This document shows positions 16,612 to 17,891 of a stretch of 64,000 nucleotides of DNA, piece by piece. A program made the position numbers and the translations under genes. The notes beneath the pieces were generated by a model. The model did no database searches. It worked only from the letters and a program-made list of their open reading frames with translations, and was not told where the DNA came from. Every line of letters starts with the position of its first letter. Position 1 is the first letter of the stretch. Source of the stretch: Eledone cirrhosa (Eukaryota); the NCBI GenBank assembly GCA_964016885.1, contig OZ024766.1, positions 6,448,001-6,512,000 of the forward strand. The letters run 5' to 3'.

Positions 16612-17810
16612 CCATATAAGGAAGTACCCCCTTGACAAGTTCCATATAAGGAAGCACCCCCTTGACAAGTTCCATATAAGGAAGTACCCCCTTGACAAGT
16701 TCCATATAAGGAAGTACCCCCTTGACAAGTTCCATATAAGGAAGTACCCCCTTGACAAGTTCCATATAAGGAAGTACCCCCTTGACAAGTTCCATATAAG
16801 GAAGTACCCCCTTGACAAGTTCCATATAAGTAAGTACCCCTTTGATAAGTTCCATATAAGGAAGTACCCCCTTGACAAGTTCCATATAAGGAAGTACCCC
16901 TTTGATAAGTTCCATATAAGGAAGTACCCCCTTGACAAGTTCCATATAAGGAAGTACCCCTTTGATAAGTTCCATATAAGGAAGTACCCCCTTGATAAGT
17001 TCCATATAAGGAAGTACCCCCTTGACAAGTTCCATATAAGGAAGTACCCCCTTGACAAGTTCCATATAAGGAAGTACCCCCTTGACAAGTTCCATATAAG
17101 GAAGTACCCCCTTGACAAGTTCCATATAAGGAAGCACCCCCTTGACAAGTTCCATATAAGGAAGTACCCCCTTGACAAGTTCCATATAAGGAAGTACCCC
17201 CTTGACAAGTTCCATATAAGGAAGTACCCCTTTGACAAGTTCCATATAAGGAAGTACCCCTTTGACAAGTTCCATATAAGGAAGTACCCCCTTGACAAGT
17301 TCCATATAAGGAAGTACCCCCTTGACAAGTTCCATATAAGGAAGTACCCCCTTGACAAGTTCCATATAAGGAAGTACCCCCTTGACAAGTTCCATATAAG
17401 GAAGTACCCCCTTGACAAGTTCCATATAAGGAAGTACCCCCTTGACAAGTTCCATATAAGGAAGTACCCCTTTGACAAGTTCCATATAAGGAAGTACCCC
17501 TTTGACAAGTTCCATATAAGGAACTACCCCTTTGACAAGTTCCATATAAGGAAGTACCCCTTTGACAAGTTCCATATAAGGAAGTACCCCCTTGACAAGT
17601 TCCATATAAGGAAGTACCCCCTTGACAAGTTCCATATAAGGAAGTACCCCCTTGACAAGTTCCATATAAGGAAGCACCCCCTTGACAAGTTCCATATAAG
17701 GAAGCACCCCCTTGACAAGTTCCATATAAGGAAGCACCCCCTTGACAAGTTCCATATAAGGAAGTACCCCCTTGACAAGTTCCATATAAGGAAGTACCCC
17801 TTGATAAGTT
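16612..17810. repeat. 30-bp minisatellite, about 40 copies
   Basis: Unit CCATATAAGGAAGTACCCCCTTGACAAGTT, very homogeneous, preceded by 38-bp variant units from ~16553. No spacers. Confidence 0.98.
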
Positions 17811-17891
17811 CGGCTATTTATTCACCAGGCTAAAAATTCTAATTTAGTCCAGAAATAGCTGTCGAAACGGCTTGAGCTCTGCCGTCGGGGT
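17796..17891 (+). ncRNA. Type I hammerhead ribozyme with U3-A8 core variant, family C
   Basis: ACCCC-TTGATAA-GTTCGGCTATTT...AAATAGCTGTC-GAAA-CGGC ttgagctct GCCG-TC-GGGGT. GUC triplet, predicted cut after 17886. Confidence 0.75.

What the first reader, a model, noticed from the sequence alone, without database searches (positions are those of the whole stretch)
17796..17891. Natural U3-A8 compensated-core hammerhead that standard CUGANGA searches would miss
Seen: ACCCC/GGGGT helix I, TTGATAA in the core position, a G-C closed helix II, GAAA, a CGGC/GCCG helix III and a GUC triplet. Helix I can extend beyond an internal loop (AGGAA/TTCCT). Established: C3 and G8 form a tertiary Watson-Crick pair in the active hammerhead, so UUGANAA keeps that pair as U-A. 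Inference: family C uses a variant core. This is the only copy here that keeps it.
Basis: partly seen in the sequence, partly recalled or inferred. Interest (0 to 1): 0.8.

Follow-up and report, generated by a model that had tools for sequence, protein, structure and literature searches.

The report
Retrotransposon hammerhead with drifting core pair
This is one of about 5,100 genomic matches to a hammerhead-shaped, likely self-cutting RNA motif at the end of a Penelope-like jumping gene; its U-A core pair is a published variant, but a mismatched C·A version also spread to about 1,500 matches and likely gave rise to the newest U-A copies, which suggests the cut may be weak or not needed for jumping.

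Summary
17796-17891 has full type I hammerhead anatomy with U3 (17801) and A8 (17806), predicted cleavage after C17886, and no Rfam hit. It lies at the 3' end of a 5'-truncated Penelope-like retrotransposon with Hydra-clade motifs, inserted in (TA)n. U3-A8 is the family norm: 5,107 of 6,818 genome-wide matches, against 12 with C3-G8.

U3-A8 is already in print (Perreault 2011; Cervera and de la Peña 2014, in Penelope-like elements), and this scan found it before on other genomes.

"Compensated" is only partly true. 1,465 matches carry a C3·A8 mismatch (CUGAGAA), and an older subfamily carries U3·G8. With positions 3, 7 and 8 masked, trees place C3·A8 on the trunk that led to the youngest U3-A8 subfamilies. 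The other core positions stay fixed in all subfamily majorities, although my search patterns partly required them.

Most likely the motif is a weak or assisted processing ribozyme that is not rate-limiting for transposition. This copy is probably inert: it has no downstream ORF, and a 40-unit repeat of its own 5' half is predicted to capture helix I. Cleavage is untested.

The parts
17796..17891 (+). Type I hammerhead motif (helix I open) with U3-A8 core
   Evidence: structure counted on 38 family copies
17801..17807 (+). Core U3 U4 G5 A6 U7 A8 A9 (U3 = 17801, A8 = 17806)
   Evidence: family tallies
17808..17863 (+). Long helix II domain: lone G10.1-C11.1 pair, 2x1 U loop, 9-bp stem 17811-17819/17853-17861 (one G·U), distal hairpin 17828-17834/17843-17849
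   Evidence: double-sided changes in 4 of 10 and 4 of 5 pairs
17864..17886 (+). GAAA, helix III (CGGC/GCCG) with a 9-nt loop holding the palindrome GAGCTC (17874-17879), U16.1, and C17; predicted cut after 17886
   Evidence: sequence; AGCT kept in loop III in 144 of 162 copies
17789..17904 (+). Extended helix I: AGGAAGU.ACCCC with GGGGU.(CCU).ACU.(CGU).UCCU, two 3-nt bulges
   Evidence: MFE; the extension was not tested for covariation
17892..17905 (+). Short 3' end of the element, 19 nt after the predicted cut, running into (TA)n at 17904-17947; the same end point recurs across copies
16612..17811 (+). 30-bp x 40 tandem array made from the motif's own helix I 5' strand and 5' half-core, preceded by a 38-bp duplication (16555-16638); predicted to compete for the 3' strand of helix I
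   Evidence: helix I probability falls from 0.97 to 0.01-0.14 when upstream units are included
16426..16600 (+). 3' UTR remnant of the Penelope-like element (5' truncation point about 16426)
   Evidence: 93.7% identical over 175 nt to L061, 92% to L062
16341..16425 (-). Inverted 'tail' piece (about 85 nt that follows the hammerhead in long-ended copies), the 5' inversion typical of these elements
   Evidence: 88-89% identical to the L061/L062 tail
15612..16340 (+). Host site: 3' end of an older LINE fragment with an 81-bp x 5 internal repeat; the element sits in its AT-rich end
   Evidence: the RTE-like label is recalled from the C-terminal motifs, not from a call

Best explanation
This is the type I hammerhead motif in the terminal repeat (pLTR) of an abundant Penelope-like retrotransposon family with Hydra-clade motifs, in which U3-A8 is the majority core; it likely cuts tandem or read-through element RNA after C17 only weakly or with help, and this truncated copy is probably inert. 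Shown: the motif, its place about 690 nt after the RT + GIY-YIG ORF and, in tandem copies, about 190 nt before the start codon; the 3/8 tallies; the subfamily order; helix covariation. Inferred: (1) a cut in the upstream pLTR frees the 5' end of a unit-length RNA, and reverse transcription starts 19 nt or about 105 nt beyond the cut in the downstream pLTR, giving the two recurring ends; (2) activity depends on help, either the element's own protein or dimer pairing through the loop III palindrome, because G10.1-C11.1 is a lone pair and an alternative hairpin competes; (3) selection on the 3-8 pair is weak, so the master lineage passed through U3·G8 and C3·A8 while still amplifying, then returned to U3-A8.
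For: Tallies: 6,818 matches, of which 5,107 U3-A8, 1,465 C3-G7-A8, 57 U3·G8, 12 C3-G8. With the core left unspecified, the first 100 of 5,902 matches are 75 U3, 25 C3, 100 A8, 99 with U4-G5-A6. Element: RT (YRDD) and GIY-YIG-like ORFs flank copies; Atlas neighbours carry RVT_1, GIY-YIG and HTH_animal on 10-76% of members; a sense hammerhead 3' half plus tail precedes the ORF in 13 of 30 loci found through the ORF; RWR, DKT, CxCX5C, CxxC and CxH motifs and (TA)n targets fit the Hydra definition. Structure: 87.2% of cells paired against 82.4+/-0.5 shuffled and 30-45% slid; 46 double-sided cells against 21.8. Across ten subfamily majorities 65 of 146 columns vary, but in the core only positions 3, 7 and 8 do. 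Trunk position of C3·A8: AU p 4.7e-7 against C3·A8 as one clade and 3.0e-8 against the U3-A8 groups S3+S5 as one clade. In print: a Penelope-like hammerhead needs the element's protein to cut, and catalytic mutants do not reduce insertion in vitro (PMC11167929); metazoan PLE hammerheads are weak in vitro (PMC4209133).
Against: No cleavage or expression data. RNAalifold on the 38 copies did not recover the hammerhead; it predicted a different 8-pair stem. Only 38 of 162 copies have all three helices above probability 0.5, and 0 of 28 in the C3·A8 group. Pfam gave no significant hit for the ORF pieces and PDB none. The core invariance is partly built into my patterns; core-blind checks cover positions 3-9 in the younger subfamilies and GAAA (51 of 58) and GUC (42 of 58) in copies found by the 5' half. 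The shuffle control ignores relatedness and the 38 rows were hand-picked. The AU groups were named after seeing the tree, and template switching could distort the tree: the window copy itself has a 3' end like the S4b/S5a subfamilies.
Confidence: 0.68

Rival explanations
1. Vestigial ribozyme: the fold is kept as the 3'-end recognition signal for the element's reverse transcriptase and no longer cuts in vivo, so the 3-8 pair drifts.
For: 1,465 C3·A8 matches, at least one with a 5' pLTR and ORF (L217). Insertions need only the 3' half: the other window copies keep about 60 nt of it. Catalytic mutants do not affect insertion of an anole element in vitro, and no reads ended at its cut site (PMC11167929).
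Against: U4, G5, A6, A9 and G10.1, which lie in the dispensable 5' half, stay fixed across all subfamily majorities while neighbouring columns change. The lineage returned to a Watson-Crick pair, and large subfamilies hold only pyrimidine-3/purine-8 states.
Confidence: 0.2
2. One reading: a strictly compensated, efficient stand-alone ribozyme that cuts at this locus.
For: All catalytic residues are present; the isolated 136-mer folds with helix probabilities 0.97, 0.83 and 0.98; helix III has 4 G-C pairs, as in fungal PLE hammerheads that cut as monomers (PMC4209133); U3-A8 cores are reported active in vitro (PMC3088659 section 8, citing a paper I could not read).
Against: Mismatch subfamilies amplified; G10.1-C11.1 is a lone pair with probability 0.07; upstream repeat units take over helix I (0.01-0.14); the copy has no downstream ORF.
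Confidence: 0.1
3. The U3 and A8 letters are private decay of a canonical copy, or the fold is chance.
For: Folding z-score is only -1.37; no Rfam hit.
Against: 5,107 U3-A8 against 12 C3-G8 matches; 0 descriptor hits in 100 simulated windows; covarying helices.
Confidence: 0.01

Closest known systems
U3-A8 hammerheads of Cercyon Penelope-like elements in Schistosoma mansoni (Cervera and de la Peña 2014, PMC4209133)
   Same: Type I hammerhead in a pLTR, U3-A8 in place of C3-G8, thousands of mostly truncated copies, opposite-strand pairs, palindromic loop III.
   Different: Those are minimal motifs with almost no helix III, a 7-8 bp helix II and an extra base at 9.1. This one has a 4-bp G-C helix III with a 9-nt loop, a helix II domain of about 55 nt and no 9.1 base. 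The parts I read report no C3·A8 or U3·G8 subfamilies.
Hydra-clade Penelope-like elements and their hammerheads, including Hydra-1_Obim (Craig et al. 2021, PMC8557442)
   Same: C-terminal GIY-YIG, RW(K/R) and DKT motifs, CxCX5C linker, CxxC and CxH around E and N, (TA)n targets, hammerhead near the 3' end. By eye the ORF runs parallel to Hydra-1_Obim.
   Different: All 26 Hydra rows in File S2 have CUGANGA cores, stem II of 3-7 bp and loop III of 1-3 nt. Hydra-1_Obim is a different family with a different hammerhead.
Natural U3-A8 core variants (Perreault et al. 2011, PMC3088659)
   Same: Covariation of the 3-8 Watson-Crick pair to U-A in natural hammerheads.
   Different: Rare examples there; here it is the majority state of a whole retrotransposon lineage, with wobble or mismatch states in between.
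Poseidon element of Anolis carolinensis (PMC11167929)
   Same: Hammerhead in the pLTR upstream of the ORF, two recurring 3' ends defining a tail.
   Different: Canonical C3-G8 core, different clade, ORF starts inside the ribozyme; protein-assisted cleavage shown there, untested here.

Membership tests
Hammerhead ribozyme (type I) | Three helices around the core, helix I open | tested here: met
   RNAalifold on the mixed alignment did not recover it
Hammerhead ribozyme (type I) | U4 G5 A6, A9, G12 A13 A14, A15.1-U16.1, H17 | tested here: met
   present in the window copy; fixed in ten subfamily majorities
Hammerhead ribozyme (type I) | Watson-Crick pair between positions 3 and 8 | tested here: met
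   U-A in this copy and in 5,107 of 6,818 matches; not met in 1,465 C3·A8 and 57 U3·G8 matches
Hammerhead ribozyme (type I) | G10.1-C11.1 closing a continuous helix II | tested here: inconclusive
   pair conserved (33 of 38 G-C) but next to a 2x1 loop in this copy; probability 0.07
Hammerhead ribozyme (type I) | Tertiary contact between helix I and helix II peripheries | not tested
   helix I has two 3-nt bulges, but helix II is too long for the usual loop contact; no partner was sought
Hammerhead ribozyme (type I) | Self-cleavage after position 17 | not testable with these tools
   needs an assay or raw RNA reads
Hammerhead ribozyme (type I) | Match to an Rfam hammerhead model | tested here: not met
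   the variant core and long helix II likely explain the miss, so I do not treat this as defining
EN+ Penelope-like element | Single ORF with RT followed by GIY-YIG | tested here: met
   YRDD and VIY..YIG motifs in flanking ORF pieces; Atlas leads; Pfam blank
EN+ Penelope-like element | pLTR on both sides of the ORF in tandem copies, 5' truncation, inverted 5' piece, optional tail | tested here: met
   13 of 30 ORF loci have the upstream sense pLTR; inversions and two end points
Hydra clade of Penelope-like elements | RWK-type motif and DKT in place of DKG | tested here: met
   RWR and DKT in L217 against the definition
Hydra clade of Penelope-like elements | CxCX5C linker; CxxC and CxH around the conserved E and N | tested here: met
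   L019 and L016 translations
Hydra clade of Penelope-like elements | (TA)n insertion preference | tested here: met
   ends run into (TA)n in the window copies and most loci
Hydra clade of Penelope-like elements | Absence of the CCHH motif; grouping with Hydra RTs in a tree | not tested
   no reference proteins were available to the tools; compared by eye only
Minimal PLE hammerhead (min-HHR) | Helix III absent or 1-2 bp; extra base between 9 and 10.1 | tested here: not met
   4-bp helix III, no 9.1 base
Non-LTR retrozyme | Tandem units that each hold a complete hammerhead, non-coding element | tested here: not met
   the 30-bp units hold only the 5' half-core; the family has its own ORF

The most novel reading that the evidence does not exclude
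One retrotransposon lineage walked the catalytic 3-8 pair of its hammerhead from C-G through U-A, U·G, U-A and C·A back to U-A while making thousands of copies, and the C·A form, which in effect is the classic dead G8A mutant, still cuts in vivo: either the element's protein or dimer pairing rescues it, or the linked G7 slips into the G8 role (C3-G7 pair, one-base-shorter turn). That would be a functional natural hammerhead core without the canonical 3-8 pair.
Probability: 0.15. Interest if true: 0.72.

Novelty: new variant of a known kind. Interest (0 to 1): 0.36.

Why it matters
U3-A8 itself changes nothing: it has been in print since 2011 and in Penelope-like elements since 2014. The value is the lineage. 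Whether Penelope-like elements need their hammerhead to cut is open, and this family supplies a natural, ordered allelic series (C-G, U-A, U·G, C·A) in near-identical backgrounds, with copy numbers as a record of success. Assaying four short RNAs would show either that transposition tolerates a crippled ribozyme for long stretches or that a mismatched core can be rescued. It also shows that CUGANGA-only searches miss more than 99% of this family's hammerheads (12 of 6,818 matches are canonical).

Tried and rejected
Rfam: no hammerhead hit; the E-value hits were (TA)n artefacts. Pfam and PDB sequence search: nothing significant for the ORF pieces. RNAalifold: no hammerhead consensus. Dimer pairing of helix III plus loop: self-duplex energies of -11 to -27 kcal/mol (the window row was folded with T letters) show that pairing is possible, not that dimers form. 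The regex subfamily labels were faulty, so their per-group numbers were dropped; groups were redone from the tree (12 loci left out; 48 of 162 rows used). Rejected readings: retrozyme (array units are half-cores); minimal hammerhead (helix III present); protein-coding use of the array (its open frames are a by-product of a 30-bp stop-free unit); canonical family with private changes. Own-genome look-up of earlier notes was empty. Papers not held, so not read: Przybilski and Hammann 2007, Nelson and Uhlenbeck 2008, Martick and Scott 2006, Hammann et al. 2012, Lünse et al. 2017, Lee and York 2008. That single C3U or G8A changes strongly reduce cleavage is therefore recalled, not read.

Full report
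Observation. The MFE of 17780-17905 is the three-way junction with an extended, twice-bulged helix I, but at z -1.37 the energy alone is not unusual. A strict descriptor gives 1 hit in the window and 0 in 100 simulated windows. Rfam finds no hammerhead. G10.1-C11.1 is a lone pair beside a 2x1 U loop (probability 0.07; 0.8 kcal/mol above the MFE when forced). The other family copies in the window are 5'-truncated 3' halves, several as inverted pairs, so they lack the core and do not carry a different one.

The element. A DNA search of the own genome returned 41 scored matches at 94-100% identity out of 1,321 candidates. [quoted passage not shown] Pfam and PDB gave nothing significant; Atlas neighbours at 0.93-0.98 carry RVT_1, GIY-YIG or HTH_animal on 10-76% of members, which is a lead only. 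Of 30 loci found through the ORF, 13 have a sense hammerhead 3' half and tail just upstream. Nine of these keep the core: 6 U3-A8, 1 C3·A8, 1 G3·A8, 1 U3·U8. In L217 the start codon lies about 190 nt after the predicted cut. This is the pLTR-ORF-pLTR layout. The protein has RWR, DKT, CxCX5C, CxxC and CxH motifs and the copies end in (TA)n, matching the Hydra clade definition (PMC8557442 section 11); no tree with references was run. The host was not identified by any search; the nearest published family I saw is from an octopus, which is only suggestive.

This copy. It consists of an inverted tail piece (16341-16425), a 3' UTR remnant (16426-16600), a 38-bp duplication and a 30-bp x 40 array (16612-17811) built from the motif's own 5' strand, the motif, and an end at 17905 in (TA)n. 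It sits in the AT-rich end of an older LINE fragment (RTE-like by recall). It has no ORF downstream, so it cannot seed a new round. With one or more array units included, native helix I falls from 0.97 to 0.01-0.14 because the 3' strand pairs with an upstream unit. I infer it is inert.

Positions 3 and 8 genome-wide. A pattern leaving 3, 7 and 8 open gave 6,818 matches (control pattern 0). U3-A8: 5,107. C3-G7-A8: 1,465, out of 1,603 non-U3, non-G8 matches. Pyrimidine-3 with G8: 69, of which 12 C3-G8 and 57 U3·G8 by my count of the list. The remaining 177 are other combinations. Matches are not insertions, since many are inverted pairs. A tighter pattern gave the same picture (1,806 total, 10 with G8, 383 non-U3). 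With all seven core letters open, the first 100 of 5,902 matches are 75 U3, 25 C3, 100 A8, 100 A9 and 99 U4-G5-A6, so no large canonical subfamily is hidden among the younger copies.

Order of states. I extracted 162 distinct copies from 189 loci; the sample is biased by the patterns that fetched it. Trees with positions 3, 7 and 8 masked and nearest-neighbour distances (sampling-dependent) give: distant sisters S0, C3-G8 in 4 of 5 (0.19); S1, mainly U3-A8 with a G8 side branch (0.087); S2, U3·G8 in 15 of 16 (0.056; these rows were largely fetched by a G8 pattern, but in the position-8-blind list most copies with this subfamily's helix II letters also have G8); S3, U3-A8, including the window copy (0.027); S4, C3·A8 with G7 (0.027); S5, U3-A8 again (0.009). 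S5 nests inside S4 behind two starred branches. AU tests on 48 of the 162 rows reject C3·A8 as one clade (p 4.7e-7) and S3+S5 as one clade (p 3.0e-8). The groups were named, the root was unstable, and recombination was not tested, so I rate the trunk reading likely, not certain.

Selection on the fold. On 38 hand-picked copies the hammerhead structure is 87.2% paired against 82.4+/-0.5 shuffled and 30-45% slid, with 46 double-sided cells against 21.8, mostly in helix II and its distal hairpin; relatedness inflates these counts. Across ten subfamily majorities 65 of 146 columns vary, yet helix I, the loop III palindrome and every core position except 3, 7 and 8 are fixed. My patterns required some of these letters; in copies found by the 5' half alone GAAA is kept in 51 of 58 and GUC in 42 of 58. 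Against: RNAalifold did not recover the fold, and an alternative hairpin across GAAA competes, most in S4 and S5 (mean probability about 0.5).

Mechanism. Most likely the motif is the pLTR processing ribozyme proposed for these elements (PMC4209133): a cut in the upstream pLTR defines the 5' end of the element RNA, while reverse transcription starts just beyond the downstream copy at one of two sites, as shown for an anole element (PMC11167929). That paper also found that the ribozyme needs the element's protein and that catalytic mutants do not reduce insertion in vitro. A weak, assisted, non-limiting cut explains why mismatch cores could amplify while the rest of the core is held and the pair is eventually restored. 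All functional steps are inferred. The main rival is a non-cutting recognition structure.

Literature. U3-A8 in nature: PMC3088659 (passages and section 8) and PMC4209133 (parts 1-2 of 4; about 1,300 hits in Schistosoma; supplement file 2 searched with no octopus entry, file 1 not searchable). All 26 Hydra hammerhead rows in PMC8557442 File S2 are canonical and short (passages, section 11, supplement part 2 of 59 and term searches seen). In cricket satellite hammerheads C3 and G8 are rarely mutated (PMC2837043 passages). PMC3884650, PMC6257768, PMC7151607 and PMC6765202 were seen as passages, and bioRxiv 10.64898/2026.07.22.740005 as part 1 of 5; none added to the core question. Eight searches showed no report of this family or of amplified C3·A8 subfamilies, but the library lacks several key papers, including Lünse et al. 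2017, so absence from print is not established. Earlier notes of this scan report U3-A8 Penelope hammerheads in at least five other genomes.

Verdict. The architecture and the drift of the 3-8 pair through mismatch states make it a new variant of a known kind with one clean, cheap experiment attached. Interest 0.36.

Noticed in passing
window 45122 and 42634, minus strand: Two canonical-core (CTGATGA) short hammerhead-like motifs of another repeat family, with a 6-bp helix I and a short helix III.
   Followed up: no
window 34378-34493, 15394-15518, 55912-56036, 50452-50557, 135-225: Tiny inverted-pair insertions of the same family: only about 60 nt of the hammerhead 3' half on each strand, one arm with the 85-nt tail, flanked by (TA)n.
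   Followed up: partly
window 58502-58562: 3' half of the old S1 subfamily, also as an inverted pair.
   Followed up: partly
G000:C440 at 38327, 64749, 91113, 117974 (L179): Four near-identical distant-sister hammerheads with U3·G8 spaced about 26.4 kb apart, so they sit inside a large tandem unit or segmental duplication.
   Followed up: no
subfamily majorities: Position 10.2 also toggles (U, A, C). In S2 and in the large young S5b subfamily it is A, which restores an A-U pair next to G10.1-C11.1.
   Followed up: no
L108, L113, L191: A small group with G3·A8 also amplified (L108 and L113 form a starred pair inside the C3·A8 group).
   Followed up: no
window 48723-48794 (+) and 19131-19187 (-): Two near-identical tRNA-like Rfam hits just above threshold, probably heads of a tRNA-derived SINE.
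   Followed up: no
window 4523-5018, 15785-16193, 30473-30929, 31819-32377: Several other minisatellites of 48-84 bp that look grown from pieces of repeats, like the 30-bp array beside the motif.
   Followed up: no
window 17892-17905: The 3' end of this copy matches the S4b/S5a subfamilies while the rest matches S3, which hints at template switching or conversion between subfamilies.
   Followed up: partly
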